Source: a virus
Lineage: Duplodnaviria > Heunggongvirae > Uroviricota > Caudoviricetes
DNA length: 38,116 bases
Reading direction: 5' to 3' (one strand)
Virus record (IMG/VR): IMGVR_UViG_2541047893_000008
Part shown: positions 8,976 to 37,120 of the stretch, piece by piece
Layout: each line of letters begins with the position of its first letter
Position numbering within the stretch: the first letter of the stretch is position 1
Made by a program: the position numbers and the translations under genes
Notes under the pieces: generated by a model
Database searches by the model: none
The model's input: only the letters and a program-made list of their open reading frames with translations
What the model was told of the DNA's origin: nothing

Positions 8976-8979
8976 ACCA

Positions 8980-21186: not shown

Positions 21187-22083
21187 ATGCCTGCCGTTGA
21201 CCTTTCCCAGTTACCGGAACCCGCCATCATCGCGGAGCCTGACTTTGAGGCAATTCTGGCTGACACAAAGGCCATGATGATTGCGGCTTATCACGCCGAA
21301 CAGCGTGAAGCCGTTTCCGCCGCGCTGGAGCTGGAATCGGAACCCCTGAACGTTATCGCCCAGACAACAGCGTTTCGTGAAATGCTGTTACGCCAGCGGG
21401 TCAATGAGGGGGCACGCGCCTGCATGTTAAGCCACAGCGCCGGGACAGACCTGGACAACCTCGCGGGCAATATGAACACAAAGCGCCTGACCATCACTCC
21501 GGCAACGGATACCACCGACGCAGTGATGGAAAGTGACACCTCGCTGAGACTGCGGGCGCAGCGGGCGTACGATGGCCTGAGTGTTGCTGGCCCGTCAGGT
21601 GCATACGAGTATTTTGCCCGCAGCGCCAGCGGTCTGGTGCGTGATGCGCGGGCTATCAGTCCGTCTCCGGCAAATGTGACGGTTTCCATTCTGTCCACTG
21701 AAGGCGACGGCACAGCAACGGAGGCGTTGCTTAATACCGTTCGCGCCGTTCTGAATGCAGAGGACACCCGCCCGGTGGCCGACCGCCTGACCGTACAGAG
21801 CGCCAGAATCGTGACATGGCGGCTGAATGCAAAACTGTACTTTTACCCCGGTCCGGAATCCGAACCTATTCTGGCTGCGGCGGAATCGTCGTTCAGGAAG
21901 TGGCTGGCTGAGCAGGGGCTTATCGGTCAGGACGTGGCGTTGTCCGCCATTGCTGCCGCACTGCATGTGCACGGTGTGCAACGCGTGGAGATAATCGAAC
22001 CCACACAGAATATGGCCATCAGCGACATACAGGCGGCGCGCTGTGAGTCATTCACCATCAGCGAAGGTGGGCGCAATGAGTAA
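21187..22083 (+). CDS. J: Baseplate assembly protein J
   Basis: 298-aa ORF in P2 position between W and I. Confidence 0.88.
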   Translation: MPAVDLSQLPEPAIIAEPDFEAILADTKAMMIAAYHAEQREAVSAALELESEPLNVIAQTTAFREMLLRQRVNEGARACMLSHSAGTDLDNLAGNMNTKRLTITPATDTTDAVMESDTSLRLRAQRAYDGLSVAGPSGAYEYFARSASGLVRDARAISPSPANVTVSILSTEGDGTATEALLNTVRAVLNAEDTRPVADRLTVQSARIVTWRLNAKLYFYPGPESEPILAAAESSFRKWLAEQGLIGQDVALSAIAAALHVHGVQRVEIIEPTQNMAISDIQAARCESFTISEGGRNE

Positions 22084-22606
22084 TTCGTTGTTACCACCAT
22101 CAGCCAGCAATTTCATGCGTTGTGCCGAAGCCGTCGGAACACGCATTACAGACATTCCGGTAGACCTCAACACACTGTGGTCGCCGGATACCTGCCCGGT
22201 GCATCTGCTGCCCTATCTCGCCTGGGCATTTTCCGTTGACCGCTGGGATCGCAACTGGCCGGAAGAGACAAAGCGACAGGTTATTCGTGATGCATGGCTG
22301 ATACACCGACACAAAGGGACCATCAGCGCACTGCGCAGGGCCATTGAGCCGCTGGGATACCTCATTCGCGTGTCTGAGTGGTGGGAGTTCGGCGGAGAAC
22401 CGGGAACATTTACCGTTGAAGTCGGCACACTGGACAGTGGCGTGACGGAGGAAATGTATCTGGAAATGGAGCGGTTGATTGCTGATGCCCGCCCGGTCAG
22501 CCGCCACATGACAGGGCTGAATATCATTCAGGAAATTCCGGGGGATATTTTCGCAGCGGCGGCAACTTATGACGGTGAAGTTATTACCATTTATCCGGAC
22601 GATTAA
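22076..22606 (+). CDS. I: Baseplate / tail fibre attachment protein I
   Basis: Start ATG overlaps the J 3-prime end (MSNSLLPPSASNF...); synteny J-I-H. Confidence 0.85.
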   Translation: MSNSLLPPSASNFMRCAEAVGTRITDIPVDLNTLWSPDTCPVHLLPYLAWAFSVDRWDRNWPEETKRQVIRDAWLIHRHKGTISALRRAIEPLGYLIRVSEWWEFGGEPGTFTVEVGTLDSGVTEEMYLEMERLIADARPVSRHMTGLNIIQEIPGDIFAAAATYDGEVITIYPDD

Positions 22607-22608
22607 GC

Positions 22609-24033
22609 ATGAGTACCACAACACGAAAATTTAAAACCGTTATCACCGATACAGGTGCAAAAAAATTAGCTCAGGCAGCCGCGCCAGATGGTAAGCCTGT
22701 CCGCCTGACTCATATGGCCGTGGGCGACGGTGGCGGCACGTTGCCCACACCAGACAGTAAGCAGACCCGTCTGGTGCATGAGGTGTGGCGACACACTGTT
22801 AATCGCGTCATCCTGGACGCAACACATCAGAACCGCATTATTGCGGAGCTGGTTATACCTCCTGAAACGGGCGGATTCTGGATCCGGGAAATTGGTGTAT
22901 TTGATGAGCACGGCGATTTAATCGCGGTGGGCAATACTGCCGAAAGTTACAAGCCAACCGTTGCCGAGGGGTCCGGACGTGCACAAACATTTCGCACCAT
23001 TCTGACCGTATCCAGCACTGCCAGCGTGGCGCTTACCGTGGATAACACCATGGTGATGGCCACAGTGGATTACGTGGATGACAAACTGAAAGAGCATGAA
23101 CAGTCACGACGTCACCCGGATGCCTCGCTGACCGCAAAAGGCTTTGTTCAACTCAGTAGCGCCACTAACAGCGATTCTGAAACGCTGGCCGCAACGCCGA
23201 AAGCGGTTAAGGCCGCGTATGACCTGGCTAACGGAAAATATACCGCTCAGGACGCCACGACGGCACGAAAAGGGATAGTCCAGCTCAGCAGTGCAACCAA
23301 CAGCACGTCTGAAACGCAGGCTGCAACGCCGAAAGCAGTAAAGGCGGCATATGACCTTGCTAACGCAAAATATACCGCTCAGGACGCAACGACGGCACGA
23401 AAAGGGATAGTTCAGCTCAGTAGCGCCACTAACAGCCCGTCTGAAACGCTGGCTGCGACACCAAAAGCGGTTAAGGCGGTAATGGATGAAACGAACAAGA
23501 AAGCGCCTTTAAACAGTCCTGCGCTGACCGGAACGCCAACAACGCCAACTGCGCGACAGGGAACGAATAATACCCAAATCGCAAGCACGGCTTTCGTTAT
23601 GGCTGCGATTGCCGCCCTTGTAGATTCGTCACCTGACGCACTGAATACGCTGAACAAGTTAGCGGCGGCGCTGGGAAACGACCCGAATTTTGCGACCACC
23701 ATGACTAACGCGCTTGCGGGTAAGCAACCGAAAGATGCCACCCTGACGGCGCTGGCCGGGCTTGCTACTGCGGCAGACAGGTTTCCGTATTTTACGGGGA
23801 ATGATGTCGCCAGCCTGGCAACCCTGACAAAAGTCGGGCGGGATATTCTTGCGAAATCGACCGTTGCTGCCGTTATCGAATACCTCGGTTTACAGGAAAC
23901 GGTAAATCAGGCTTCTGGCGCATTACAGAAAAACCAGAACGGCGCAGATATTCCGGGTAAAGATACCTTCACCAAAAACATTGGTGCCTGCCGCGCATGT
24001 GAGGCGGATCAGAATATTGGAGGGGAGCATTAG
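22609..24033 (+). CDS. H: Tail fibre protein H, constant N-terminal part plus a short segment after the gix crossover; apparently truncated
   Basis: 474-aa ORF with a conserved fibre N-terminus and internal 44-aa tandem repeats; crosses the left gix site at codon 423-431 and stops about 45 codons later. Fibre-like sequence continues out of frame downstream. Confidence 0.85.
   Translation: MSTTTRKFKTVITDTGAKKLAQAAAPDGKPVRLTHMAVGDGGGTLPTPDSKQTRLVHEVWRHTVNRVILDATHQNRIIAELVIPPETGGFWIREIGVFDEHGDLIAVGNTAESYKPTVAEGSGRAQTFRTILTVSSTASVALTVDNTMVMATVDYVDDKLKEHEQSRRHPDASLTAKGFVQLSSATNSDSETLAATPKAVKAAYDLANGKYTAQDATTARKGIVQLSSATNSTSETQAATPKAVKAAYDLANAKYTAQDATTARKGIVQLSSATNSPSETLAATPKAVKAVMDETNKKAPLNSPALTGTPTTPTARQGTNNTQIASTAFVMAAIAALVDSSPDALNTLNKLAAALGNDPNFATTMTNALAGKQPKDATLTALAGLATAADRFPYFTGNDVASLATLTKVGRDILAKSTVAAVIEYLGLQETVNQASGALQKNQNGADIPGKDTFTKNIGACRACEADQNIGGEH
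23137..23496 (+). repeat. About 2.7 tandem copies of a 132-bp (44-codon) repeat inside H
   Basis: Protein repeat KG(F/I)VQLSSATNS(D/T/P)SET(L/Q)AATPKAVKAAYDLAN(G/A)KYTAQDATTAR seen three times; nucleotide copies near-identical. Confidence 0.8.
23875..23900. other. gix/hix-like crossover site (left), inside H
   Basis: atcgaatACCTCGGTTTACAGGAAAC; inverted copy at 27174-27201. Matches the Mu gix consensus as I recall it; homology between the two copies continues about 100 bp. Confidence 0.75.
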
Positions 24034-24906
24034 GCATGTACAGCGCCGCATATTATTTTGGGGCTAGAGTGGTAGGCAGCAATTAACCATCCTTACTCGG
24101 GGAGCAAAGGCGAGTGGGCTTCTGCAAAGAATAAGGTCACTACAGATGCCGGTTGCGGTAACGCTTTTCTTGAAGGTGAAGTCAATGAAGTGATTGTGCC
24201 TGGCGGCTCGACTACCATTCGCGTAAATGCGCCGAGTTCTTTCAGCGGGGGTGAGATTACTGAGCCCGAAATCAATTCCATTATACATAGCGTTAATTAA
24301 GATCATGGATGGAGAGGTGATTACATTACGGGAAAGCAGCTTCCTGTATTTGTTTTAGCGCAAGCAGGGCGCACGGTCACAAATCATACTGATGTTGGCA
24401 CCGTCGGTCAAACCGCTGTTTAGGATGCAGCAACCAATCGCGCGACAAAATTCACGAACGCCCACAACATGCTGGCTTGTAACAGCGCGCGTGTACATTT
24501 TTGCGTGAATTCCATGTACGGCAGTATCTCCAATCTTTGCGGGAGTCTGGGTATTGGAATGGCTGATGCCTTGTGAGGAATTTACATCACATCAGGCAAA
24601 CACGATACTGGGTTTGAAGGAAAATATGCTCGGGCGCTAGATGCTTAAGGTAATGTTGCGCATGTACTCCTCTTTAGTAATTCATCTGTTCTATCATGAA
24701 AGGGTACTGGCTCTGCGGACAGGAAAGGTTTCGTCGTTACAGGTGCAATTACCGCTGACCGTGATGCATCATTTGATTCATGGCAAACTTGGTCAATTCC
24801 AAATTGTGTAAAGGGGGGTGGGGATTACGCGGGGAATTTCTATAGTCGACGCACTACAGAAACCTTAGTGATATTTACTGTAAACGATCAGATCCATACA
24901 AGCTAC
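24034..24906 (+). pseudogene. Remnants of the distal (receptor-binding) part of the tail fibre, broken by multiple frameshifts and stops
   Basis: Fibre-like peptide stretches in three different frames (SKGEWASAKNKVTTDAGCGNAFLEGEVNEVIVPGGSTTIRVNAP...; KGTGSADRKGFVVTGAITADRDASFDSWQTW...GDYAGNFY...), each ending in a stop; no ORF over 100 codons. Confidence 0.45.
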
Positions 24907-25387
24907 TGAGGTAACTTAAAATCCAGTTGTTTGAAACAGAGTATGCTTGACACAGATCTGAATAACGAAGTAATTAACTGCCAAACACTTAACATCTGGT
25001 GCACGTCCGGTCATGTGTTGTCTTTTATATATGTTCGGGAGACTCATTAAATCATCGCCAAGGATATTGCGTCGTTGTATTACATGATCGTTCAGAAGAT
25101 TATAGATCTGACATTTTATATTAATGCGAGCGCTTAATATGAGTAGTTGTAAGGACATCATAGCCGGTAACGCTGCAACGCCGGAAGACTGAAAATTAAC
25201 AAAGAAGCCTGCTGCCATCCGGCATTAATCAGAAGAAGGTAAAAACCTCACAGAGACAGCTAAGCATTTTCTCTCAGACGAATAAAAAAATGTTAACGAA
25301 GAAAATACTATTTTCGCCGCTATCAGAATATATGGTCAATTCCATACTGCCGAAAATGTTACCGGAATAAACGTAACGAGAGTAGGC

Positions 25388-25600
25388 TTGAAACCGGGCC
25401 TTAATTTTTACGGTAACTTTAGGTTTCATGCTGGCTCTGCCGTATCCACACGGTTGACGACAGATGAGCAGCGTCCACATGAAGCAACACATGAGGCTTC
25501 GTCACCCGTCGACGTAGAAAGCCTTATAGAGCCTCCGGAACGCGCTGTAAGGCTTAACGCGGCGGAGAATGAGGCAGGCGTACGACATGAGGCCTGGTGA
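25388..25600 (+). pseudogene. Remnant of a tail fibre assembly (chaperone) gene C-terminus
   Basis: Track ORF 25388..25600 ends ...IEPPERAVRLNAAENEAGVRHEAW, resembling the conserved C-terminus of P2 G / Mu U-type assembly proteins; upstream part not in frame. Confidence 0.35.
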
Positions 25601-26560
25601 TGCTATAGTTCTATCGTATACAGTCTGGTTACGACAGCGCCCTCCTTACACCACCAGCCTCATTAGTCATTAGCGCCTCGGATGAAGCCAACTTCCAGTC
25701 CCTTAGTTCCGCAAAAACTACTAGCAGTATGGAATTGTGCATAGATGCTACTAGCTGCGAAAAGATCATTTTCTCTGTTAACTTTCGTTAATTCTTCTCG
25801 GAGAAAGTGCTTAACCTCAGCATAGAAGTTTTTCCCTGCTTCTGATCACTGACAAGTTGCAGCATGCTTCTCTTTTAACTCTCAGCCTTCCGCTGCTTTT
25901 CTGCCTCGCGCTTAGTTCGCTTTTCAACGCATCATTCTAAGCACACGCTTTAATCCGCCATGTCACCTCTGTGTATTGCTGTAATGTCATGTAATTCAAC
26001 CCCGCTATCGTATTGCCGATTTAGGGATCTAACTCCCTTACCAATATAACTAATAATGCCTTACTTGAAGGGGACTGGTAGTACCATGTTTGGCAGTAAT
26101 TCCTATTGTTCCTTTGATGAGTTCTTAGCAGCACATCATTAACACCATTGGAATCTAAATTGTTTCAGTTGCTTGGTTGTATCTTTCCTTTTACAGTTAA
26201 CGGCACCGAGGTATTTGTATTTCGCCAACTATAAAAATTCCACCCGGAATCCTAACCCCGATCAGTGCCAGACGGTACTGGCGAATTCCCCCTCGTATTA
26301 AATGATTCATCACGGGCTCCGTTATCTGAACCTGAAAGTGCGAATAATGTACTTTCAGAAGCGTGAGGACCATTTAATGATTGAACAGAGCCCTGTCTAA
26401 CCCAGCATACATCTGCAATAAAAGCAGAATCATCCTCCGCCTCAGTACATGTACGAACAACCCCAGTAGAGGTTTTGCCTATAGCTGTGGAATACCCCCC
26501 CCGGTTAGCTGCAAAGCCATAACCATGACGCGCTGTAAAATAAAAAATAACGCCGTACCT

Positions 26561-27184
26561 TTAGTTAGAACGATAATATCCTGGCCGATAGCTACACGCC
26601 TTAATGGTGAAGGGGATGATGCTTTCCGTCGCGCCATTGATAGCTGCCCACTTAAAAGTTCTTTGACAGTCGGAGTCATCCGCATTAGGATTAACAACCC
26701 TTAGTCCTTCTTCCCCAAAAACTAGTGCAGGCAGCTGCCTGCCTTCAATGTAAAAACCTCTCCATACATGAGCATCAGCATCGCTAGGTTTAATGGAGGT
26801 GATTGGGGGCTCAGTAGTCCCGTACGCGGAGAACTTACTTGGCGCAGATAAGCCTCTATCAGTCCCGCCACGAGGGCTTACCACTCCAACCAATGCACAT
26901 TCATGACTTGCATAACCGCAACCGGTATATGTGATCACCTTATTCATTCTGGAAGCCAGTGAGCCTGTGCTGCCTCAGGAACGACGGAAAAAAACTCCAT
27001 GCCACTCTAGCCAAACTACATTAGACGGCGCATTAAATGCGTGACTATGCATACCATTTTTCTTACATGCCTCATATGCGCGGCAGGCACCAATGTTACT
27101 CAGGAAGCGATCCTTATCAGGAATATCCGCGCCGTTCTGTTTTTTTTGTAATGCGCCAGAAGCCAGATTTACCGTTTCCTGCAA
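26561..27184 (-). pseudogene. Alternative (inverted-orientation) tail fibre C-terminal segment, interrupted
   Basis: Minus-strand ORF 26975..27184 starts inside the right gix site and encodes QETVNLASGALQKKQNGADIP..., a paralogue of the H sequence at the left site, but stops after 69 codons; fibre-like sequence continues in another frame (ORF 26561..26947). Confidence 0.45.
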
Positions 27185-27201
27185 ACCGAGGTTTTAGATA
27201 A
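27174..27201. other. gix/hix-like crossover site (right), inverted relative to the left site
   Basis: Reverse complement reads ttatctaaAACCTCGGTTTGCAGGAAAC, near-identical to the left site and to my recollection of the Mu gix sequence; about 55 bp upstream of the invertase gene. Confidence 0.75.
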
Positions 27202-27255
27202 TGGCCGTTTCCGGCCTGCATGGCATGATTTGCGCTTTTGGACGGGAGATTCAGT

Positions 27256-27855
27256 GTGCTGATTGGTTATGTAAGGGTATCAACAAATGACCAGAATACA
27301 GGCCTGCAACGAAACGCTCTTGTTTGTGCAGGATGTGAACAAATATTTGAAGATAAATTAAGCGGGACAAAGACAGACCGACCGGGATTAAAACGCGCTT
27401 TAAAGCGGCTTCAAAAAGGTGACACGCTGGTTGTCTGGAAACTGGATCGCCTTGGGCGAAGCATGAAACATCTGATTTCTCTCGTCGGAGAACTACGGGA
27501 GCGAGGGATTAATTTTCGCAGTCTGACCGACAGCATAGATACATCTTCTCCAATGGGGCGTTTTTTCTTCCACGTGATGGGTGCCCTGGCTGAAATGGAA
27601 CGTGAATTAATTGTTGAACGTACACTGGCCGGACTGGCGGCAGCGCGCGCACGGGGGCGCACAGGCGGACGTCGCCCGAAGCTGACAAAAGAACAGCATG
27701 AGCAAATAGCAAGGCTGATCAAAAACGGTCATGACAGGAAACAACTGGCGATCATTTACGGCATCGGCATATCGACGATTTATCGTTATCACCCTGTAGG
27801 CGATATACAGGCTGAAGAAACAACCAGGCAGACTCAGGAAAATGAAAACCGCTAA
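27256..27855 (+). CDS. Serine recombinase, DNA invertase of the Gin/Pin/Cin/Hin family
   Basis: N-terminal catalytic motif LIGYVRVSTNDQ, resolvase core (VVWKLDRLGRS), C-terminal HTH (GISTIYRY); almost colinear with Gin/Pin from memory. Probable GTG start (track ORF begins 27238). Confidence 0.9.
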   Translation: MLIGYVRVSTNDQNTGLQRNALVCAGCEQIFEDKLSGTKTDRPGLKRALKRLQKGDTLVVWKLDRLGRSMKHLISLVGELRERGINFRSLTDSIDTSSPMGRFFFHVMGALAEMERELIVERTLAGLAAARARGRTGGRRPKLTKEQHEQIARLIKNGHDRKQLAIIYGIGISTIYRYHPVGDIQAEETTRQTQENENR

Positions 27856-27874
27856 TCTGACCATTAGCGGTTTT
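27845..27874. terminator. Bidirectional terminator-like palindrome between convergent invertase and gpU genes
   Basis: aaaaccgctaat-ctgacc-attagcggtttt: perfect 12-bp arms, 6-nt spacer, T-runs on both strands; overlaps the invertase stop codon. Confidence 0.55.
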
Positions 27875-27881
27875 GCGTTAA

Positions 27882-28376
27882 TCAAAACAGCCCTTTAACG
27901 GAGCTGGCCGCGCTGTTAAGGGATGATGTGACCTTATCTTTGAAGCCGGACAGCATATCACTGAACGATGAGGATTGCAGGCGCTCCCGCAAATCCTCAT
28001 CACAGCGTTCAAGGGTCAGTGAAAATTCTATCTTTTTCGCCTTACCGTAGCGATCAAACTCGGAACGGGTCGTATTCGTTCCGGTCAGGACATACATGCC
28101 GTAAATCTGCCCGACGCCATCAATCAAAGGCCAGGGTCGTCCTGTATACGCCTGCGTGGTCAGCAGCGACAGCGACACTTCGCCACCTGTAATTTCAGGA
28201 TAAAGCACACCAGAAAGAACGATGCGATCATCACCTGCACCGATATACTGCCAGCTTGCTGAACGGTTAACGCGTTCATTTTTCACATGCCGCCAGCTTT
28301 TGTTTTGCTGTAACTGCTGATGCGGCAGCGTGCGCAGCTCAAAAACAAACATGCCGTAGATCATCATCATGGCCAT
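27882..28376 (-). CDS. U: Tail protein U (P2 gpU family)
   Basis: 164-aa minus-strand ORF; MFVFELRTLPHQQ... and FSLTLERCDEDL match P2 U; follows tape measure T on the minus strand. True start may be one of the Met residues 3-5. Confidence 0.85.
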   Translation of the reverse strand: MAMMMIYGMFVFELRTLPHQQLQQNKSWRHVKNERVNRSASWQYIGAGDDRIVLSGVLYPEITGGEVSLSLLTTQAYTGRPWPLIDGVGQIYGMYVLTGTNTTRSEFDRYGKAKKIEFSLTLERCDEDLRERLQSSSFSDMLSGFKDKVTSSLNSAASSVKGLF

Positions 28377-28382
28377 GACTCC

Positions 28383-31226
28383 TCAATCTTTATCGTAAAA
28401 ACTGCCACGCCAGGCACGGGCGCGCCGTTCCATTTCTGCCCTGACCATTTCACCGACCAGTTTCGCCAGTTCGCGGGGATTCTGCGTAACAACGTTATGC
28501 AGATGAACATGAATTTCACCACCAAATCCGGAGGCAACAGGCTCCCGGTTACGGGAAGTTACAGGAACTGATGCCACTGGAGATCGTATAGCCTCCGCCA
28601 CCGGGCGGGAGCTGGCCGCAACAACAGGGACCAGCGCCGGAGGCAGCGGAGCCGGGAGCACGGGTGTGATATTAATTGCGGGGGCAGGCTTACTGGCCTG
28701 CGCAATCTTCCGCTCCTGCCACTCCCCACGAACAGCAAGTGCGCGGGGCAGGTTCTTAAAGACAATATCGCCGGGGCCAATGCGTTTTTTCGTCTCATCA
28801 ACCAGCTTACCTGTGTTATCAGCAATTTTGCTGAGTCTGCGTAGTGTACCGGTATTGCTGTCTGTGAGCGGTTTGTTGTCTTTGGGTTTATCACCTCCGG
28901 TGCCATTGCCATTTTCCACAGGCTTCGGCGGATTGATTTTCGCCAGGTCCCCCTGAAGCAAGGCAACCTTGTCCTGAAGAATGGCCGCACGCTGTGCGTC
29001 TTCGATTTTCTTTCTCGCCCTTTCCGCTTCATCCGGAAGAACACCGAGTTTTTCAAGTATCCACGCCAGCGTATCCAGCAACATTTTTGCAGGCGTCAGA
29101 ACAAGCTGTAACGCGCCACCAAGAACGTTACCGAATATCTCGCCAGCACTGGTACATTTATCCAGCGTTTCCTTGCTGGACTCCATCGGTGACAGCAGCG
29201 ATTTAAACCAGTTAAACACCTGGCTGATCCCGCTTCCGATTGCGTCAAAAACAGGACCAAACTGTTCAAAGGTTTCGCGCAACGGGATCAGCCTTTCCAT
29301 AATCCCGCTGAACACCCCGGCAAAAAATGCCCTGATGGGATCCCAGTATTTCCAGATAAGAACGGCAGCTCCGGCAAGCGCAGCCACGATAAGACCAACC
29401 GGACTGAACAGCGCCCCGATAGCACCTCCCAGCAAAGAAACGGAACCCGTCACCATTCCCCATAGTGCTGGCAGGACCCTGACAGCATTCATTGATCCGG
29501 TCAGGAGAGAAAAACCAAGACGCAGTTTTGCCAGCGGGCCAGCAAGCACACCAATAGCCAGCGACAACGAGCCAACCGTTGCAGTCATTGCCAGCAACGC
29601 ACCGCCTGCTATCAGTAGCTGGCGCGTCAGTGTCGGATGGGCCTGCGCCAGCGCCGTCACCCTTGATACCACCCGTGTGAGCCACTGCGTGACAGAACGC
29701 AGCGGACCGTCAATCAGATCTGCAATGCGGATGCGCAACCCTTCCCATGCACTGCCGAGTGATTTCAGATCGCCGTCAAGGTTGTTGGCCATAACCTTTG
29801 CTGTGCGTTCAGCCTCACCGCGTGCGCCTTCAAGTTCTTTTCTCAGTTTAGGTAAGGAACCGTCACCCGCTGCATCAACGAGCGCCATAAACGATGTGAA
29901 AGCCTCTTCTCCGGCAATGTCCTTAAAGAACGATACCCGGTCAACTTCCCCGTATTTGCGGGTGGCTTTATAAAGGTCGGCCAGCACATCCTCCATCGGG
30001 CGCATTTTGCCGTTCGCGTCAGAGACTGCCACACCAAGCTCTTTCAGCGCCTCTGCTGCCGCCTTTGGCGGTGATGCCAGACGAGCCAGGCTGGCACGCA
30101 TTGCCGTCCCGGCATCACTTCCCCTGATACCCATATTCGCCAGCACGCCTGCTATCGCTGCGGCCTGCTCCAGCGATATTCCCAGCTTACCCGCCACCGG
30201 ACCTGCATATTTCATGGTTTCGCCCAGTGCGCGAAGGTCAGTGTTGGTACGGGTAAACGCTGCGGTGAGCGTGTCACCGACCCGGTCCATCTGGTCGGCA
30301 GAAAGGCCGAACTGCGTCAGGATGTTTGAGCCAATATCCGCCGTCTCGCCGAGATCCATACCGCCAGCCGTTGCCATGCTCAGTACACCGGGAAGCGCAG
30401 CCTGAATGGCCTGTGGTGTGAAGCCAGCCATTGCAAGAAATGCCTGTCCACTGGCGGCATCTCCAGCGGTGAACTGCGTTTCAGAGCCAAGTTTTAACGC
30501 CTGCTCACGCAGCGCCTTAAACTGCGGGCTGTTTTTGTCGATTCGCGTCAGTGCCTGAACGCGGGACATCTCTTTGCCGAACCCGATCGCAGGCTGCAAA
30601 AAACGCCCGGCAGCATAGCCGCCAGCCGCTGCAGCACCAATTGCCAGCGCACCACCTGTTTTCAGTTTTCCCGCTGTTTCCTGCACGCGCGAATACCGCT
30701 CACGCGCCCGCGTTACACGCGCAAGCGCCTGCCGTTCGCGTTCAAGCTGGTTGTTGTACTGTTCGGTGCGTCTGATGGCCTGCTGGATGGTGTTATCGCT
30801 GCCTGTCAGGGAAATGCCGTGGCGTTTCAGCTCTCCGCCAAGTTCCCGCATTTTCTGAATTTCCCGTGTGCGCGATTCATTCAGGCGTTCAAGCCGGGTG
30901 CTTAACTGCTGCATCAGCTTTTGTTGTTTTTCGCTGAGCACTGTACCCGTGCGTTGTAACTGATTAAGGGCGTTAAGCTGGCGTCGTGCTTTCACGATAC
31001 CCGCATCCGCTTTACTGACAGCGTCGCGGGCGCGCTCAAATGAACGCGCCTGACGCTCGAGATTTTTGATCGCCCCCTGCGTTCGCTGGATGGAGTCACC
31101 AAACTGCCTCATCAGGCGGCGGGCGTTTTCGGCAGGCCGGGTCAGCCTGTCAACGGCGCTGAAAGCGACCCGGATATCAAGAGTCTTCATTGTCTGCATT
31201 CCCGCTGCGAAGTGCCGCCCGCTCAC
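28383..31226 (-). CDS. T: Tail tape measure protein (P2 gpT family)
   Basis: 947-aa minus-strand ORF; long helical N-terminal region, Gly/Ala-rich hydrophobic central segment, position between E/E' and U. Confidence 0.9.
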   Translation of the reverse strand: MSGRHFAAGMQTMKTLDIRVAFSAVDRLTRPAENARRLMRQFGDSIQRTQGAIKNLERQARSFERARDAVSKADAGIVKARRQLNALNQLQRTGTVLSEKQQKLMQQLSTRLERLNESRTREIQKMRELGGELKRHGISLTGSDNTIQQAIRRTEQYNNQLERERQALARVTRARERYSRVQETAGKLKTGGALAIGAAAAGGYAAGRFLQPAIGFGKEMSRVQALTRIDKNSPQFKALREQALKLGSETQFTAGDAASGQAFLAMAGFTPQAIQAALPGVLSMATAGGMDLGETADIGSNILTQFGLSADQMDRVGDTLTAAFTRTNTDLRALGETMKYAGPVAGKLGISLEQAAAIAGVLANMGIRGSDAGTAMRASLARLASPPKAAAEALKELGVAVSDANGKMRPMEDVLADLYKATRKYGEVDRVSFFKDIAGEEAFTSFMALVDAAGDGSLPKLRKELEGARGEAERTAKVMANNLDGDLKSLGSAWEGLRIRIADLIDGPLRSVTQWLTRVVSRVTALAQAHPTLTRQLLIAGGALLAMTATVGSLSLAIGVLAGPLAKLRLGFSLLTGSMNAVRVLPALWGMVTGSVSLLGGAIGALFSPVGLIVAALAGAAVLIWKYWDPIRAFFAGVFSGIMERLIPLRETFEQFGPVFDAIGSGISQVFNWFKSLLSPMESSKETLDKCTSAGEIFGNVLGGALQLVLTPAKMLLDTLAWILEKLGVLPDEAERARKKIEDAQRAAILQDKVALLQGDLAKINPPKPVENGNGTGGDKPKDNKPLTDSNTGTLRRLSKIADNTGKLVDETKKRIGPGDIVFKNLPRALAVRGEWQERKIAQASKPAPAINITPVLPAPLPPALVPVVAASSRPVAEAIRSPVASVPVTSRNREPVASGFGGEIHVHLHNVVTQNPRELAKLVGEMVRAEMERRARAWRGSFYDKD

Positions 31227-31706
31227 GCCAGCTAACCACTTCGCCGGGCGTCATCATGAAGATTTCGGCGGGCGACCAGTTAAAAATGGCGGCAATATCC
31301 GCCACAAAGTCTTCTATGTACTCAAAGCACACAACCGTGATCAGGCTTCCGTCGCCTGTTCGTTCTTCCCGCCAGAGTCCGCACCGCTCAAAAAATTTAC
31401 GGCAACCACACATAACTGAATAAAGTCACGGGATGCCATTTTTTTGATCGTCACTTCATCCAGTCGCGGTGATGTCACGCGTGACAGCAGCGTAAACATG
31501 GATTCCGCTTTCAGATTCAGCACATCAGACAGCGACAAATCTCGCAGAGATCCAGCCTGCTCAATAGCTCCGGTAATCTCCACATACGTGATTTTTTCGC
31601 CGCCTCGCTCAATTGGTTGGGTAAGTTTTACGCCACGCTCACTGGTTTCTTTCACAGTGTCAGCAACGACCGTGTTTTCGTTATCGATGTTTTTCGTCTC
31701 TTTCAT
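31177..31706 (-). CDS. Tail assembly chaperone E+E' (product of a programmed -1 ribosomal frameshift)
   Basis: E frame (31341..31706) and overlapping -1 frame (31177..31413) joined at a TTTTTTG slippery heptamer about 31389-31395 on the minus strand; same arrangement as P2 E/E'. Confidence 0.7.
31341..31706 (-). CDS. E: Tail assembly chaperone E (P2 gpE family)
   Basis: 121-aa minus-strand ORF between tail tube and tape measure genes; contains the slippery site near its 3-prime end. Confidence 0.85.
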   Translation of the reverse strand: MKETKNIDNENTVVADTVKETSERGVKLTQPIERGGEKITYVEITGAIEQAGSLRDLSLSDVLNLKAESMFTLLSRVTSPRLDEVTIKKMASRDFIQLCVVAVNFLSGADSGGKNEQATEA

Positions 31707-31760
31707 CAGGAAACTCCTTTCAATCAGAGGCGACGCACTGCGCCGCCTGCATATTACTTA

Positions 31761-32273
31761 TCAGCCAAGCCTAAGCGCGGAACGGATGCGATCGGGCACA
31801 ATGTCCTTGCCGTCCTTCCGGTAAATGAAGTTCAGCAGGTCAATCTCCCACAACGGGCGATCGTTAACACTCAGCTTGTAGTAGGTGTTTTTAATGGCGT
31901 AAGTGTGTGATGTGGCTTCGCCCTGTTTGGCTTCCCCCATATCAATTTCCGTCACACGTCCGCGCATTTCGACTTCATACAGGTCGCTTTCTGCATCGGT
32001 GTAGTATTCACCCGCAAAACGCAGCAGCGTGCCGTCAATCGTGCCGCCATACTTAAGGAACAGCTCACGAACTGCGCCCCCCATGACAAAGCTCGCATCA
32101 AGCGCGGAGTCGTCCAGACCGAGATCAATACTTACCGCACCCATCATGCCGCCCCCCCGGTAGCTGTCGGTTTTGCGCGTCAGTTTGGGCAGAGTGACGG
32201 ACGTCACCTTACCCACTTCGTTTTCACCATCCACAAACAGCGTAAAAAAGCGAAGATGTTTTGGCACAGCCAT
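31761..32273 (-). CDS. FII: Tail tube protein (P2 gpFII family)
   Basis: 170-aa minus-strand ORF immediately downstream of the sheath gene. Confidence 0.88.
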   Translation of the reverse strand: MAVPKHLRFFTLFVDGENEVGKVTSVTLPKLTRKTDSYRGGGMMGAVSIDLGLDDSALDASFVMGGAVRELFLKYGGTIDGTLLRFAGEYYTDAESDLYEVEMRGRVTEIDMGEAKQGEATSHTYAIKNTYYKLSVNDRPLWEIDLLNFIYRKDGKDIVPDRIRSALRLG

Positions 32274-33457
32274 CAGGCACCTCCCAGCACCGCAAATGCG
32301 GGTTCAAAGTATTCATCAGTAAACGTCTGGTAAAGCTCCATGTCTTCCAGTGGCGGAACGGGCGTATATTTGTAGCGAATACGCACACGTCCCTGACGTA
32401 AATCCGTGGTGCTGTTATCCACCACGTCATACCAGCACTCCGCGCCAATCAGTTTCCCGGCAGTAACCAGTGAATCCAGTTTTGCCCTGATGGCACTGAT
32501 AACATCCTTCACGTTCGCAGGCGTCAGTGGACTGTCGATGGTTTCAAACTGCGCTTCTGCAATTGAATCAGCCAGCACCTGTGCGGTTCGGGTATACACC
32601 TCAAAGATGTAGGCGTTCGTTTCCGGTGTGCGGTTGCCCCAGAAGCGGAACCCGTTGCGACGAATAATGGTCGTGATTTCTTTGTTGTTGAGGCTGTTGG
32701 CATCGCTGTCTTCGGCCTGCAACGACCAGAACACATGCCTCGACATCCCCAGCACATTTTTAACCGGAACGTTGGACAGTGATTTGTGCCATCCCTGCTC
32801 ATGGTCAATGTACGCACGAAGGCCGCACGCATAGGCAGGCGCGGGGAACGTTTCGTTTTTGCCACTTTTCGGGTTGTAGGCGATGAAGTCCGGCCATAAG
32901 AGCATCACCTCACGTTCGTTGAATTTCTGGCGGTAGGTAATCGCCTCAGCCATCGTGTTACAGCCGTGACATGAGGCATACACAAACGCGCGCAGTTTAC
33001 CCGCAATCACGCACAGGGATTTTGTTACCGCCTCCGTGTCCAGCTCCGGCGCGGCCAGAATACGCGGACGGTATCCGATGCTTTCATCCTGCTCTGCAAC
33101 AAGCAGCGCATACATCCCCGTATAGCTGCCGTCAGATTCAGAACCACCGATAACCAGTTGATCCTGCGTCTTTCCGTCTTCTTCTTTGTGTTCAGCCACG
33201 CGAACGACGATCACCTTTGTGCTCACCTGGTCTGCAATGGCCTTAAGCGCACGATAAAGCGTCCCCGTTGTCCCGCATTTTCCCAGCACGTCATTGACGC
33301 GGGTCAGCAGTGTGGGCTTGTTCAGCGGGAACAGCTTCGCGTCCGCATCATCCGCCGTTGCCACGATACCGATAACGCTGGAATCAACATCGTTAATCGC
33401 TGTTACCAGGTCGGTATTTTCCGTAACACGGGCACCATGAAAACGAGTTTCACTCAT
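32273..33457 (-). CDS. FI: Contractile tail sheath protein (P2 gpFI family)
   Basis: 394-aa minus-strand ORF; blocks (LRAFVYAS, WPDF, EQGWHK, IRRNGFRFWGNRT, YTRTAQV, YTPVPPLE) match P2 FI. RBS AAGGGG. Confidence 0.9.
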   Translation of the reverse strand: MSETRFHGARVTENTDLVTAINDVDSSVIGIVATADDADAKLFPLNKPTLLTRVNDVLGKCGTTGTLYRALKAIADQVSTKVIVVRVAEHKEEDGKTQDQLVIGGSESDGSYTGMYALLVAEQDESIGYRPRILAAPELDTEAVTKSLCVIAGKLRAFVYASCHGCNTMAEAITYRQKFNEREVMLLWPDFIAYNPKSGKNETFPAPAYACGLRAYIDHEQGWHKSLSNVPVKNVLGMSRHVFWSLQAEDSDANSLNNKEITTIIRRNGFRFWGNRTPETNAYIFEVYTRTAQVLADSIAEAQFETIDSPLTPANVKDVISAIRAKLDSLVTAGKLIGAECWYDVVDNSTTDLRQGRVRIRYKYTPVPPLEDMELYQTFTDEYFEPAFAVLGGA

Positions 33458-33614
33458 AGCTTCAGCCCCTTGTATCCGTTAAATGATTCGGCAACAATCA
33501 TCACCCACCACGCGCGTAATCTCACCCCTGCGCCGTTCTCCCGACCCGGCGACAACAAAAAGCAGTAACCCCCTCCGCACGCACATGCGACCATGCCGCA
33601 CAGGGAGGGAACAG

Positions 33615-34724
33615 ATGACCGACACCACCATGCAATTGCTCAGTCAGGGCACAGACCCCGTGAAAATGCCGGATTTTGATATTCTCGCGGAGGGTAAAAC
33701 GCTGTCAGGCGTGGCAGAGCGCCTGATGAGCCTGTCACTGACCGACAACCGGGGATTTGAGGCGGACCAGCTCACCATCATGCTGGATGATGCAGATGGT
33801 CAGTTGCAGCTACCGCCACGGGGCGCGCACCTGACGGTTCTCATTGGCTGGAAAGGAGAACCGCTGACAGAAAAAGGCACTTACATTGTTGATGAAATCG
33901 CTCACGAAGGACCGCCGGACAGGCTGACTGTTTCAGCCAGAAGCGCAGATTTTCGGGATGAATTTAACGTTAAACGTGAGGTGTCCTGGCATGATGTGAC
34001 CATTGAGCGTGTGGTATCCGCCATCGCTCATCGGTATGGTCTGAAACCGCAAATCAGCGAAATGCTGATGGATATCGAAATCGACCACGCCGACCAGACC
34101 GAAGAAAGCGACATGTCCTTCCTTACGCGCATGGCGGAAATGCTGGGCGCAATCACCACGGTAAAAAGCGGTAATCTGTTATTCATTATGCCAGGCGGTG
34201 GCGTGAACGCACAGGGCCAGCCGTTGCCATCGTTCGCCATCACGCGCAGCAGTGGCGATCGCCATCAGTTCCGCATTGCTGACCGCGAGGCGTATACGGG
34301 GGTACGCGCTTACTGGCTTGATCTTAATTACGGGAAAAAGAAAAAAGTCAGCGTGAAACGCCGCAAACCGCCAAAACCCAAAAAGGAGAAAAGCAGCAGC
34401 CGTGAAGGTGATTATATGGAAGGCGCGGAAGGCAATGTGTTTGTGTTACGCAAGACTTATCAGAACGAGCAGGCAGCAAGACGCGCAGCGGCGGCAAAGT
34501 GGCAGCAGCTACAACGCGAAGCCGCATCATTCTCCATCACGCTGGCACGTGGTCGTGCAGAACTCTACCCCGAAATGCATGGCACGGTAACAGGATTTAA
34601 AAGCGAGATTGATAATCAGGACTGGATTATTGCAAAAGCCGAGCACACCATCGATAACAGCGGCTTTACCACGCAGCTTGAGCTTGAGGCAAAAATCCCG
34701 GAATGGATAGCAGAAACAGAGTGA
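33615..34724 (+). CDS. D: Tail protein D (late gene D, gpD family)
   Basis: Start at internal ATG (MTDTTMQLL...) preceded by GGGAGGG; blocks (SLTDNRGFEAD, TIMLDDADG, TYIVDEIAHEGPPD, SWHD, FTTQLELE) match P2 D. On the opposite strand to FI-U. Confidence 0.88.
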   Translation: MTDTTMQLLSQGTDPVKMPDFDILAEGKTLSGVAERLMSLSLTDNRGFEADQLTIMLDDADGQLQLPPRGAHLTVLIGWKGEPLTEKGTYIVDEIAHEGPPDRLTVSARSADFRDEFNVKREVSWHDVTIERVVSAIAHRYGLKPQISEMLMDIEIDHADQTEESDMSFLTRMAEMLGAITTVKSGNLLFIMPGGGVNAQGQPLPSFAITRSSGDRHQFRIADREAYTGVRAYWLDLNYGKKKKVSVKRRKPPKPKKEKSSSREGDYMEGAEGNVFVLRKTYQNEQAARRAAAAKWQQLQREAASFSITLARGRAELYPEMHGTVTGFKSEIDNQDWIIAKAEHTIDNSGFTTQLELEAKIPEWIAETE

Positions 34725-34766
34725 GCAACTTAGAATAGCAGCAGCACCACGTTAAGGGAGGTCGCT

Positions 34767-35027
34767 ATGTTCCGTTGTCCGCTTTGTGGCGCATCTGCCC
34801 GTATCCGCACCAGTCGTCCGGAAAATGATTCAAACACCGTGCGGCAAAAGTATTACCAGTGTAACAACCTGGAATGCGGCGTATGCTTCTCAACACTGGA
34901 AGCTTTCCATAAATTCACATCAAAACACGCCTCCGGTGTTCACTCTTCAGAAGGTATCCCGTGGCATGAGCTGCCAGCTTCACACAGGGGAAACAATCAG
35001 ATGAGTTTGCCTTTATCTCAGAATTAA
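34767..35027 (+). CDS. ogr: Ogr/Delta-family zinc-finger late transcription activator
   Basis: 86 aa; N-terminal MFRCPLCGA...RTSR...YYQCNNLECG with four Cys spaced as in P2 Ogr; last canonical gene before the right end. Confidence 0.8.
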   Translation: MFRCPLCGASARIRTSRPENDSNTVRQKYYQCNNLECGVCFSTLEAFHKFTSKHASGVHSSEGIPWHELPASHRGNNQMSLPLSQN

Positions 35028-35218
35028 CAGGCAGAATTGCCGGAGTAACAAAAAAGCGATAGATTACGCGCGGGTGCCTTTCGGCTGATGGTCGGAGGGA
35101 ATACCCGAAGGCCAGATGTGGAAAGGCCCCGGAAAACATTTCTGTTTAACCGAGGCCCTAACATATCTACCTTAAGCAAGTGATAGGTTAGCGCCTCTCC
35201 AACAAAGGAGCAAGCGCT

Positions 35219-35359
35219 ATGTCGCAAAAATCGCTTACGGCCATCACGTTCTGCGTGACGGTAATCCTCATCATCTGGATGCTGCACGGTTCGCTGTGTG
35301 AAATACGGATGAGCTTTTGGGGAGCGGAGTTTGCGGCGTTCTTACAGTGTAAGCAGTAA
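35219..35359 (+). CDS. Hok/Gef-family-like small membrane toxin (candidate type I toxin)
   Basis: 46-aa ORF with RBS AGGAG 7 nt upstream: short N-terminus, one TM helix (AITFCVTVILIIWML), then the SLCEIR motif and EFAAF segment characteristic of Hok/Gef/PndA proteins. Followed by a 9-bp-stem hairpin. Confidence 0.55.
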   Translation: MSQKSLTAITFCVTVILIIWMLHGSLCEIRMSFWGAEFAAFLQCKQ

Positions 35360-35621
35360 GGAAACCGCGACGGGGGAGTAATCCCCCGTCAATCGGTTGC
35401 TAGGGTAAGGTCGATAAGGCACCCTATCTCACAGCTCTAAATGCAAAAATTCCATGAAACTGTGGGATTTTTGCATCACATACTGATACAGACCAGCCCT
35501 TCTATATGCCTCACTCTATACCAGCTAATCAATTGACACTTATCAATAAAAATAAATCTGATAAAATCAAAATGTTTTGTAACAAATATCAACTCGTATT
35601 AATCCAAAGGAGGCGGATTAC

Positions 35622-35954
35622 ATGGCATTAATCAAATGTCCTGAATGCCAGAAAGAGGTGAGCGATTCAGCATTGTATTGCCCTGCTTGTGGTAAACAAC
35701 TGCAAAAACTTAAGCGTTCATTTTTTGGACGGATCATTAAGTGGGTTTTTATATTATTTAATATTTTTATGATCTATACGCTTTTAGTTGGAATAGGAGG
35801 CACTAGTGAAATAATAAATAATGCCACATCCGATGCCGAAAAAGCCGGTGCAGTTATTGGTACAGGCTTAGGTTTAATTACCATTGGAAGCTTATGGGTT
35901 ATTGGCGATATCATTATCGGAATTTTAGTATTTCTTACTAAACCAAAGGGATAA
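35622..35954 (+). CDS. Zinc-ribbon membrane protein (CPxC...CPxCG plus two TM helices), AT-rich cargo
   Basis: 110 aa; N-terminal Cys4 ribbon (CPECQ...CPACG), two hydrophobic helices; strong RBS AAAGGAGG; TTGACA -35-like hexamer about 85 bp upstream; AT-rich. Confidence 0.65.
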   Translation: MALIKCPECQKEVSDSALYCPACGKQLQKLKRSFFGRIIKWVFILFNIFMIYTLLVGIGGTSEIINNATSDAEKAGAVIGTGLGLITIGSLWVIGDIIIGILVFLTKPKG

Positions 35955-35958
35955 TAAA

Positions 35959-36852
35959 ATGAAAAATATAATTTTTTCTATAGGTGCATCATTTATATCA
36001 ATTAGTGTACTGCCTGTTCACGCAGCAACTGAACATAAGAACTTCAATGCAGTACTTCAGTGCCGAGCAATAGAAAATAATAAAGACAGACTTTCTTGTT
36101 ACGATAAGTCAATACAACCGACTCGAACGAAAGTTGCTGAAAAATTCGAAAGCAGAGATCAATGCCCTGATGAGAAAGATGATGATAGACGTTTATCTTG
36201 TTATGATCGTTTCTTTTCTCCAACATTTACTCCATCTGTAAACTCAAAATCTAAAACGGAAAAGCCAGTAACAACAGAGGCTCAGCAACCAAATCTTTCT
36301 GAGATATCTAAATGTCGTGCAGAAAATGATAAAGAAGCCAGACTAAACTGCTACGATAAACTATTCCCACAGGATAAAATCGCTCAAGCTGAATCAAAAT
36401 TAGAGAAAGCCACAGATGTAGGAAAATGGCACACATCCATTACTACATCGCCAATTGATGATTCGAAAAATGTAATTTTATCGTTAGAAAGTGATGATTA
36501 TATCAGAACTCCATTTGGAGAAGCGGTTACTCCTACTCTTTTTATAGCTTGCCGAGAAAAGAAAACCGAAGTATTTCTTAGTTGGGATGTATATTTAGGC
36601 CTTGAACAAACCAGCATGCTTTATCGCCTTGATAAACAGAAAGCAGTTGAGCGAAACTGGCTAGTATCTACAGATACAAAGGCTGTTTTTTATAAAGGTA
36701 ATGACATTGATTTCATCCGAAAACTAGCCAACTCAAGCAAAATGTATACAAAAATAACGCCTTATAATGAGAGCCCCGTAAGTGCAACTTTCAATTTAAA
36801 CGGCCTGTCAAACGCGCTAAAACCGCTTCAAGCTGCTTGTAACTGGAAATAG
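35959..36852 (+). CDS. Secreted/periplasmic protein with three Cys-containing repeats, AT-rich cargo
   Basis: 297 aa; signal peptide (MKNIIFSIGASFISISVLPVHA); three copies of a roughly 35-aa motif C-x7-9-(D/E)xRL(S/N)CYD(K/R)-x-F; start 4 nt after the zinc-ribbon gene stop. Confidence 0.7.
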   Translation: MKNIIFSIGASFISISVLPVHAATEHKNFNAVLQCRAIENNKDRLSCYDKSIQPTRTKVAEKFESRDQCPDEKDDDRRLSCYDRFFSPTFTPSVNSKSKTEKPVTTEAQQPNLSEISKCRAENDKEARLNCYDKLFPQDKIAQAESKLEKATDVGKWHTSITTSPIDDSKNVILSLESDDYIRTPFGEAVTPTLFIACREKKTEVFLSWDVYLGLEQTSMLYRLDKQKAVERNWLVSTDTKAVFYKGNDIDFIRKLANSSKMYTKITPYNESPVSATFNLNGLSNALKPLQAACNWK

Positions 36853-36882
36853 TATTAAATCATGTGGCTTAGCCACAATCAC

Positions 36883-36922
36883 AGATAACACAAAGCCCGT
36901 GAAAACGGGCTTTGTGTTATCT
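36883..36922. terminator. Strong terminator-like palindrome (17-bp perfect stem) closing the right-end cargo operon
   Basis: agataacacaaagcccg-tgaaaa-cgggctttgtgttatct, 30 bp after the stop of the 297-aa gene and 14 bp before the attR core. Confidence 0.6.
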
Positions 36923-36935
36923 GTAACTCGAAAAT

Positions 36936-36954
36936 GTGGTCACTGCGTGGACAC
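36936..36954. repeat. attR core (direct repeat of attL core)
   Basis: 18/19 identity with 11-29, located after the last prophage cargo gene and a strong terminator hairpin, before the host flk-like gene. Confidence 0.6.
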
Positions 36955-37120
36955 GCGCTGACATAAATCCTTTTACATCAATAAATTAAGTCATCATTTT
37001 TTTCATCAACAAGGATTTTCACGTTTGTGTTACCTGTATGAGACGAGAGTTAACCAGACAAGTGTGCCATAATCTCGCGGCCAGGCATACTTGCGAAGAT
37101 TTCAGGTATAAGGATACGTA

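What the first reader, a model, noticed from the sequence alone, without database searches (positions are those of the whole stretch)
24034..27173. Localised decay: about 3 kb of the invertible fibre segment has no intact ORF in either orientation while the remaining 30 kb of prophage is intact
After each crossover site the fibre frame runs only about 45-70 codons before a stop. Fibre-like and assembly-chaperone-like peptide stretches are recognisable but scattered across frames and interrupted, the segment is AT-richer, and no ORF over about 130 codons exists in 24.0-27.2 kb. Uniform neutral decay would be expected to hit the long tape measure, terminase or A genes first, so this looks targeted: a prophage retained for particle or cargo functions but selected against adsorption, a recombination-scrambled multi-inversion region, or sequence errors confined to this region.
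Basis: seen in the sequence. Interest (0 to 1): 0.6.

Follow-up and report, generated by a model that had tools for sequence, protein, structure and literature searches.

The report
Assembly artefact in invertible tail-fibre segment
The "decayed" 3 kb is not mutated DNA: the deposited draft genome mixes, base by base, the two orientations of an ordinary, intact invertible phage tail-fibre switch, so the stop codons are an assembly error, not biology.

Summary
Window 24.0-27.2 kb has no ORF over 128 codons, and the fibre gene stops about 49 and 71 codons past the two crossover sites.

The cause is not decay. The window is GenBank KE701516.1, positions 1506194-1544309, from the E. coli UMEA 3088-1 draft GCA_000460115.1.

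It aligns without any gap to the same P88/P2-like prophage in two complete E. coli genomes. AH21F008 holds the segment in one orientation and NR1430 in the other. Both have intact fibre and chaperone genes.

Outside 23999-27091, the 7.5 kb around the segment is identical to AH21F008. Inside, every one of the 3093 bases equals either the AH21F008 base or the NR1430 base at that position. Of 2238 informative positions, 1117 follow one genome, 1121 the other, and none follow neither.

The choice is close to a coin flip per base. There are no indels and no frameshifts. The mirror axis falls exactly on the central dinucleotides of two gix-like 26-bp sites.

Simulated 50:50 mosaics reproduce the lack of ORFs. 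The lower GC is native to the segment.

Verdict: this is a consensus or flattening artefact laid over a known Gin-type host-range switch. It is not a real feature, and interest is low.

The parts
22609..23885 (+). Constant 5' part of the tail-fibre gene (P2 H / Mu S-like), up to the strand-exchange point. It contains three 132-nt Phage_fiber_2 repeats.
   Evidence: Pfam Phage_tail_fib plus Phage_fiber_2 x3. No mismatch to AH21F008 in the compared stretch from 21800. Tandem repeat at 23118-23513.
23873..23898 (.). Left 26-bp crossover site, TTATCGAATACCTCGGTTTACAGGAA. The central TC lies at 23885-23886.
   Evidence: 24/26 match to Mu gix. Identical to the EC958 Phi4 5' site listed in PMC4134206 Table 3.
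23886..23982 (.). Left inner arm of the imperfect inverted repeat (82/97 identical to the mirror arm). It is deposited purely in the AH21F008 (F) orientation.
   Evidence: All 24 informative positions in 23892-23998 carry the F base.
23999..27091 (.). Mosaic core. Each base is either that of the F orientation or that of the inverted (R) orientation of the intact segment. This creates all the stop codons.
   Evidence: 3093/3093 bases explained; 1117 F, 1121 R, 0 neither. Other mirror offsets explain at most 74.5%. 0 of 3063 31-mers occur in either true orientation.
27092..27188 (.). Right inner arm of the inverted repeat, deposited purely in the F orientation.
   Evidence: All 15 informative positions carry the F base.
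27176..27201 (.). Right 26-bp crossover site, TTCCTGCAAACCGAGGTTTTAGATAA. The central GA lies at 27188-27189.
   Evidence: 24/26 match to Mu gix. No third site of at least 19/26 in the window.
27256..27855 (+). Serine DNA invertase (Gin/Cin/Pin/Hin family), intact.
   Evidence: Pfam Resolvase plus HTH_7. 199/199 identical to WP_021528271.1. 81% identical to Mu Gin over 191 aa.
22609..24843 (+). Underlying F-state fibre gene (744 aa in AH21F008). It carries 7 artefactual in-frame stops in the window.
24846..25379 (+). Underlying F-state fibre-assembly chaperone (177 aa, Caudo_TAP). 11 artefactual stops.
25408..25935 (-). Underlying F-state silent chaperone of the alternative set (175 aa). 8 artefactual stops.
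25937..27188 (-). Underlying F-state silent 3' fibre part (Sv'-like). Inversion fuses it to the constant part. 5 artefactual stops.
22609..25137 (+). Underlying R-state fibre gene (842 aa in NR1430), superposed on the same coordinates. 9 artefactual stops.
25139..25666 (+). Underlying R-state expressed chaperone (175 aa, Caudo_TAP). 4 artefactual stops.
25695..26228 (-). Underlying R-state silent chaperone (177 aa). 8 artefactual stops.
26231..27188 (-). Underlying R-state silent 3' fibre part (Sv-like). 3 artefactual stops.

Best explanation
The 3.1-kb region without ORFs is an error of the deposited draft assembly, not a property of the DNA.

The prophage is P88-like, in the P2 group. It carries an ordinary Mu G-segment-type host-range switch. 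A serine invertase flips a 3303-bp segment between two gix-like 26-bp sites. Flipping joins one of two alternative 3' fibre-gene parts, each with its own chaperone gene, to the constant 5' part of the fibre gene.

In the record for E. coli UMEA 3088-1, the two equal-length versions of the non-repeated core of that segment were laid over each other in register. One base was then kept per column, almost at random. That produced 1121 pseudo-substitutions and about 30 in-frame stops.

Shown: the superposition itself; its axis on the crossover sites; the absence of indels; the intactness of both orientations in sister genomes; and the presence of the mosaic in the public record.

Inferred, at about 0.7: the sequenced culture held both orientations in comparable amounts, as is usual for active Gin-type switches, and this gave the assembler two alternative paths.

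Inferred, and not testable here: the step responsible was a graph bubble or ambiguity-code flattening that resolved each differing column independently.
For: - Ungapped alignment to AH21F008: no mismatch outside the segment in the 7.5 kb compared (21800-29300), 50-75% per 100 nt inside 24000-27100, no indel.
- With mirror sum 51074, 100% of bases in 23999-27091 equal the forward or the inverted base. The 120 other offsets tried give at most 74.5%.
- The axis equals the central dinucleotides of the two crossover sites, 23885/6 and 27188/9.
- NR1430 carries the in-silico inverted AH21F008 segment, with 2 mismatches in 7.5 kb. Window bases: 1026 shared, 1156 AH21F008 only, 1121 NR1430 only, 0 neither.
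- The F/R choice is 1117:1121. Runs z = -2.16. There is no dependence on base, codon phase, neighbour or mirror partner.
- All eight underlying reading frames are open in the relatives and keep their frame in the window.
- 500 simulated per-base mosaics give a longest ORF of 145 +/- 41 aa, against 128 observed.
- No complete E. coli genome or phage record holds the core sequence, and 0 of 3063 31-mers are genuine.
- The truncated 474-aa product is EQW61544.1 on KE701516.1, and the window is identical to that record over the 11.4 kb retrieved.
- Mixed orientations of such prophage segments within one E. coli culture, and errors at them in a draft assembly, are documented for EC958 (PMC4134206).
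Against: - No reads are available here, so the error is inferred from the sequence pattern alone.
- The mosaic spares the outer ~100 nt of the segment, the imperfect repeat arms: 39 informative positions are all F (p = 2^-39 under simple mixing). It also starts 16 nt later on the left than symmetry predicts. A plain pile-up of two templates would not do this, so some graph-structured or stepwise procedure has to be assumed.
- I know of no documented assembler behaviour that yields exactly this pattern.
Confidence: 0.96

Rival explanations
1. Real localised pseudogenisation: the fibre and chaperone genes of this prophage accumulated inactivating mutations, perhaps under selection against adsorption, while the rest stayed intact.
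For: No long ORFs in the region, a truncated fibre gene and lower GC.
Against: - Zero indels in 3093 nt.
- 1121 of 1121 differences from the intact sequence equal the complement of the mirror-position base. The chance expectation is about 1/3 each, so of order 3^-1121.
- The substitutions show no codon-position or base bias.
- The nearby flanks match AH21F008 exactly, so there was no time for 36% divergence.
- The GC equals that of the intact segment.
Confidence: 0.005
2. A recombination-scrambled multi-inversion region of the shufflon or Min/p15B type, in which several crossover sites reshuffled blocks of fibre genes.
For: The invertase family is right, and multi-site systems exist in related elements (consensus sources listed in PMC4134206 Table 3).
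Against: - There are only two gix-like sites in the window.
- Switching between orientations occurs about every second informative base (1069 runs over 2238 positions), not at block boundaries.
- Sister genomes show a simple two-state segment.
Confidence: 0.005
3. The same artefact but with no mixed culture. The DNA was entirely in one orientation, and software alone merged an assembly-graph edge with its own reverse complement, for instance while closing a gap between the repeat arms.
For: - The repeat arms are purely F, as if the flanking contigs came from one orientation only.
- The choice is memoryless, as for random resolution of ambiguity codes.
Against: - With one orientation only, nothing links the arms to the reverse-complemented core, so there is no obvious reason for a tool to consider it.
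- Active Gin-type switches normally give mixed cultures (PMC4134206).
- 71 contigs of other assemblies break exactly at this crossover site.
Confidence: 0.25

Closest known systems
Phage Mu G segment with the Gin invertase (also P1/P7 C segment with Cin, and e14 with Pin)
   Same: - Serine invertase 81% identical to Gin, lying next to the segment.
- Two inverted 26-bp sites, each 24/26 identical to gix.
- A segment of about 3 kb holding two mirror-image sets of a fibre 3' part plus a chaperone gene.
- The constant fibre 5' part lies outside the segment.
- Parts of the core give 76% DNA matches to Mu S'.
   Different: - The host element is a P88/P2-type prophage, not Mu.
- The inner repeat arms are longer and imperfect (82/97).
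- The literal window sequence is a superposition of both states, which no real Mu genome shows.
Invertible tail-fibre segments of E. coli EC958 prophages Phi1, Phi2 and Phi4 (Forde et al. 2014, PMC4134206)
   Same: - P2-like prophages with 2-3 kb invertible fibre segments.
- The Phi4 5' site is identical to the left site here, and the Phi4 segment is 3106 bp.
- Both orientations were present in one culture.
- The draft 454 assembly had clustered errors in such a region.
   Different: - There, the mixture showed up as alternative PacBio contigs and as a handful of indels and substitutions.
- Here, it shows up as a complete per-base mosaic without indels.
Escherichia phage P88 (genus Xuanwuvirus)
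   Same: Collinear at 97% identity over 27150-35300, which covers the invertase, the tail genes, D and ogr. This shows the rest of the prophage has the gene order of an isolated phage.
   Different: The variable fibre parts differ: only 15% of the segment query matched P88.

Membership tests
Gin/Cin/Pin/Hin-type invertible tail-fibre (host-range) switch | Serine recombinase with a resolvase catalytic domain and a C-terminal HTH, encoded next to the segment | tested here: met
   Pfam Resolvase (E = 6e-50) plus HTH_7 (E = 7e-13) at 27256-27852. 81% identity to Mu Gin.
Gin/Cin/Pin/Hin-type invertible tail-fibre (host-range) switch | Two 26-bp crossover sites in inverted orientation that bound the segment | tested here: met
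   Sites at 23873-23898 and 27176-27201, each 24/26 to Mu gix, and the only two in the window.
Gin/Cin/Pin/Hin-type invertible tail-fibre (host-range) switch | Segment carries two alternative fibre 3' parts and two chaperone genes in mirror arrangement, all open | tested here: inconclusive
   Not met by the literal window sequence, which has 3-11 stops in each frame. Met by the two sequences that together account for every base of it.
Gin/Cin/Pin/Hin-type invertible tail-fibre (host-range) switch | Both orientations occur, related by exchange at the central dinucleotides | tested here: met
   NR1430 equals AH21F008 inverted between 23886 and 27188, with 2 mismatches in 7.5 kb.
Gin/Cin/Pin/Hin-type invertible tail-fibre (host-range) switch | Fis-dependent recombinational enhancer in the 5' part of the invertase gene | not tested
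   Known for Gin, Hin and Cin from the literature (my recollection). Not examined here.
Decayed (pseudogenised) prophage genes | Frameshifting indels and substitutions unrelated to any other template, relative to intact homologues | tested here: not met
   0 indels. 1121/1121 substitutions equal the inverted-orientation base.
Multi-inversion systems (Min of p15B, shufflons) | More than two crossover sites, with block-wise permutation | tested here: not met
   Two sites only. Orientation changes base by base.
Assembly/consensus artefact at a phase-variable inversion | Sequence fully explained by two real templates in register, found only in one draft record | tested here: met
   (100% explained). 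(no other record holds it). (it is in KE701516.1). (no genuine 31-mers).
Assembly/consensus artefact at a phase-variable inversion | Raw reads do not contain the deposited sequence and support one or both clean orientations | not testable with these tools
   There is no access to reads.

The most novel reading that the evidence does not exclude
Per-base superposition of a segment with its own reverse complement may be a recurrent, unrecognised error class in legacy short-read draft genomes. If so, it could be mined as a footprint of inversion switches that were actively flipping in the sequenced culture. It would also flag artefactual protein entries such as WP_021554833.1. Within the 90% cluster of this fibre protein I found only this one case, so recurrence is unproven.
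Probability: 0.15. Interest if true: 0.3.

Novelty: not a real feature. Interest (0 to 1): 0.08.

Why it matters
Biologically it does not matter much. The prophage has a normal, already well-described invertible tail-fibre switch, and there is no evidence of selection against adsorption.

Practically there are three points.

- The GenBank and RefSeq records of E. coli UMEA 3088-1 contain 3.1 kb of sequence that exists in no cell, and a fictitious 474-aa "tail fiber protein" (EQW61544.1 / WP_021554833.1).
- Scans for pseudogenes, decay or "novel" sequence can be misled by invertible segments in draft assemblies.
- There is a simple test for this error type. Compare each base with the complement of its mirror position in an intact relative.

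Tried and rejected
- **Frameshift counting.** I expected frameshifts and found none: one ungapped tblastn HSP and zero indels.
- **Hypermutation or a biased substitution spectrum** (deaminase-like, AT-biased). Rejected: no base, GC or codon-phase preference.
- **Deterministic tie-break rules** (alphabetical base order, homopolymer preference, position parity). Rejected.
- **Read-depth-driven choice.** This would force opposite calls at mirror positions. Rejected: the mirror-pair table is 297/294 concordant against 248/275 discordant.
- **Block-wise choice of adjacent mismatches**, as for bracketed alternatives. Rejected: concordance is 52.6% at distance 1.
- **A sequence altered after deposit or made synthetically.** Rejected: the mosaic-encoded protein tail is in GenBank, and the window is identical to the record over the 11.4 kb retrieved.
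- **Exact-pattern scans** of genome contigs and viral contigs for a 40-mer of the core found nothing.
- **Literature.** Searches for the strain and for ALLPATHS-LG with efasta gave nothing useful on the cause.
- **Inverted tail-gene block.** I suspected that FI..U on the minus strand marked a defective prophage. Rejected: phage P88 and relatives are collinear.

Full report
**1. Check of the observation**

The window is a P2-group prophage with its flanks. The fibre gene starts at 22609 and its ORF stops at 24033 (474 aa). Between there and the invertase gene (27256-27855), the longest ORF on either strand is 128 aa. GC falls from about 0.56 in the late genes to 0.42-0.49. So the described absence of ORFs, the early stops after both crossover sites and the lower GC are all real.

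**2. What the region is related to**

Megablast against phages and against 5426 complete E. coli genomes found no record covering 80% or more of 23800-27300. It found only patchy 75-80% matches to Mu/P1/P7-type invertible fibre segments and to P2-like prophages with this layout: fibre, chaperone, chaperone (-), fibre part (-), recombinase.

The best hit was E. coli AH21F008. Its match spanned exactly 3501 nt for 3501 nt of query. tblastn with the AH21F008 proteins gave a single ungapped HSP of the intact 744-aa fibre over 22609-24816 in frame +1.

Oddly, each end of the segment matched both fibre 3' parts, and the middle matched both chaperones on both strands.

**3. The key result**

An ungapped comparison with AH21F008 over 7.5 kb (21800-29300) shows 100/100 identity in every 100-nt bin outside the segment, apart from one mismatch at 23999 where the mosaic begins. 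Inside 24000-27100 the bins show 52-75/100. There are no indels.

I then tested whether the mismatches are the bases of the inverted orientation. With mirror sum 51074, every base of 23999-27091 equals either the AH21F008 base at that position or the complement of the AH21F008 base at the mirror position. The 120 other offsets tried explain at most 74.5%.

The axis (51074/2) coincides with the central dinucleotides of two 26-bp sites:
- TTATCGAATACCTCGGTTTACAGGAA at 23873-23898
- TTCCTGCAAACCGAGGTTTTAGATAA at 27176-27201

Each site is 24/26 identical to Mu gix, and they are the only such sites in the window.

**4. Both states exist, intact, in nature**

E. coli NR1430 carries the same prophage (99.8-99.9% identity in the flanks) with the segment in the other orientation. 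It differs from an in-silico inversion of AH21F008 between 23886 and 27188 at only 2 of 7501 positions.

| State | Genome | Fibre | Expressed chaperone |
|---|---|---|---|
| F | AH21F008 | 744 aa | 177 aa |
| R | NR1430 | 842 aa | 175 aa |

All of these have the expected Pfam domains.

Across 23886-27188 the window agrees with both genomes at 1026 positions, with AH21F008 only at 1156, with NR1430 only at 1121, and with neither at 0.

Under mutation from the intact sequence, a changed base would match the other orientation about one time in three. Here 1121 of 1121 do.

**5. Nature of the mixing**

Within 23999-27091 there are 2238 informative positions: 1117 carry the F base and 1121 the R base.

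- The number of runs is 1069, against 1120 expected (z = -2.16). Lag-1 autocorrelation is 0.045.
- There is no dependence on which bases compete, on GC, on position modulo 2, 3 or 4, on the preceding base, or on whether mismatches are adjacent (52.6% concordance).
- There is no anticorrelation between mirror positions.

It is therefore essentially an independent coin flip per column between two sequences held in exact register, with no third base ever introduced.

500 simulated mosaics of this kind give a longest ORF of 145 +/- 41 aa, and the observed 128 aa is typical. In the window, each of the eight underlying reading frames keeps its frame and acquires 3-11 stops. The GC of the intact segment (0.450 and 0.452) equals that of the mosaic (0.455), so the AT-richness is native.

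**6. Where the sequence comes from**

The truncated 474-aa product, whose last 11 residues are encoded by the mosaic, is present in public data as EQW61544.1 / WP_021554833.1. It is named "phage tail fiber protein [Escherichia coli UMEA 3088-1]". It lies on scaffold KE701516.1 (2.26 Mb) of GCA_000460115.1.

The retrieved 11.4 kb is identical to the window, which places the window at 1506194-1544309 of that record. So the mosaic is in the deposited draft. It was not introduced later.

Outside the segment, the window differs from AH21F008 only by one 6-bp indel and 8 SNPs. None of the 3063 31-mers of the core occurs in either true orientation.

In the 90%-identity cluster of this protein, the other members are contig-end fragments that follow the F sequence. 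71 contigs end at residues 421-427, which is exactly the crossover site. That is the usual way short-read assemblies fail at this locus.

**7. Mechanism**

*Shown:*
- The deposited core is a column-wise superposition of the two orientations of an intact invertible segment.
- The switch itself is of the Gin type. The invertase has Resolvase plus HTH_7 domains and is 81% identical to Gin. The sites are gix-like. The two gene sets mirror each other. Both states are seen in sister genomes.

*Inferred:*
- The culture was probably a mixture of both orientations. This has been documented for the very similar EC958 prophage segments, where PacBio gave alternative contigs and a 454 draft had clustered errors (PMC4134206).
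- The assembler probably met two equal-length alternative paths. It represented their differences column by column, and each column was later resolved independently, much as a random resolution of two-base ambiguity codes would do.

*Not explained by simple template mixing:*
- The outer imperfect repeat arms (23886-23998 and 27092-27188) are purely F at all 39 informative positions.
- The left onset is 16 nt later than symmetry predicts.

This suggests that the arms belonged to contigs, or to bubbles resolved as whole units, and that only the core between them was merged. I could not identify the software step. From memory, this Broad series was assembled with ALLPATHS-LG, but I could not verify that here.

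**8. The rest of the prophage**

The region 27150-35300 is collinear at 97% identity with phage P88 (genus Xuanwuvirus) and its relatives. It covers the invertase, tail genes U, T, E, FII and FI on the minus strand, then D and ogr. This unusual-looking gene order is therefore normal for the genus.

**9. Comparison with known systems, and novelty**

The underlying element is a member of the long-known Mu G / P1 C / e14 P family of invertible tail-fibre switches, in its P2-like prophage form as described for E. coli EC958.

The claimed feature, localised decay, is not real. What may be mildly new is the exact form of the artefact: a complete, indel-free, per-base mosaic.

**Verdict**

Interest is low.

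Noticed in passing
window 9378-10751 (also 8016-9294): An AT-rich (GC about 0.31) two-gene cargo lies on the minus strand, between parM-like partition genes and the portal gene. That is the position of the P2 tin/old-type variable hotspot. One gene is a 278-aa orphan with only a weak PADLOC hit (Csx27, E = 1.4e-4) and no Pfam domain. The other is a DUF4760 protein. The only indel relative to AH21F008 (6 bp, at 9747) lies inside the 278-aa ORF. This could be an uncharacterised anti-phage cargo.
   Followed up: partly
window 35500-37000: A low-GC (0.33-0.39) island between the prophage end (ogr, hok/gef) and flk. It encodes a zinc-ribbon protein (35622-35954) and a VasI/TagO-like protein associated with type VI secretion (35959-36852).
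   Followed up: partly
window 23118-23513: Three tandem 132-nt repeats (79% and 67% identity to the first copy) in the constant part of the fibre gene. They encode the three Phage_fiber_2 (PF03406) repeats.
   Followed up: yes
window 22609-24033 (protein EQW61544.1 / WP_021554833.1): The 474-aa "tail fiber protein" entry in GenBank and RefSeq is a product of the mosaic. Its last 11 residues and its stop codon are artefactual. In the same 90% cluster, 71 contigs from other assemblies end at residues 421-427, exactly at the crossover site, so this locus routinely breaks short-read assemblies.
   Followed up: yes
window 27882-33457 (minus strand) versus 33483-35027 (plus strand): Tail genes FI, FII, E, T and U lie on the opposite strand to H, D and ogr. 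Only 25 nt separate the starts of FI and of the D ORF. This differs from the canonical P2 order but is collinear with phage P88 and other Xuanwuvirus genomes. RefSeq annotates D in AH21F008 as only 267 aa plus a pseudogene fragment, although a 413-aa ORF is open.
   Followed up: partly
L004 (NR1430), positions equivalent to window 23878 and 27826: The only two differences between NR1430 and inverted AH21F008 in 7.5 kb are one base in the outer half of the left crossover site and one base in the invertase gene.
   Followed up: no
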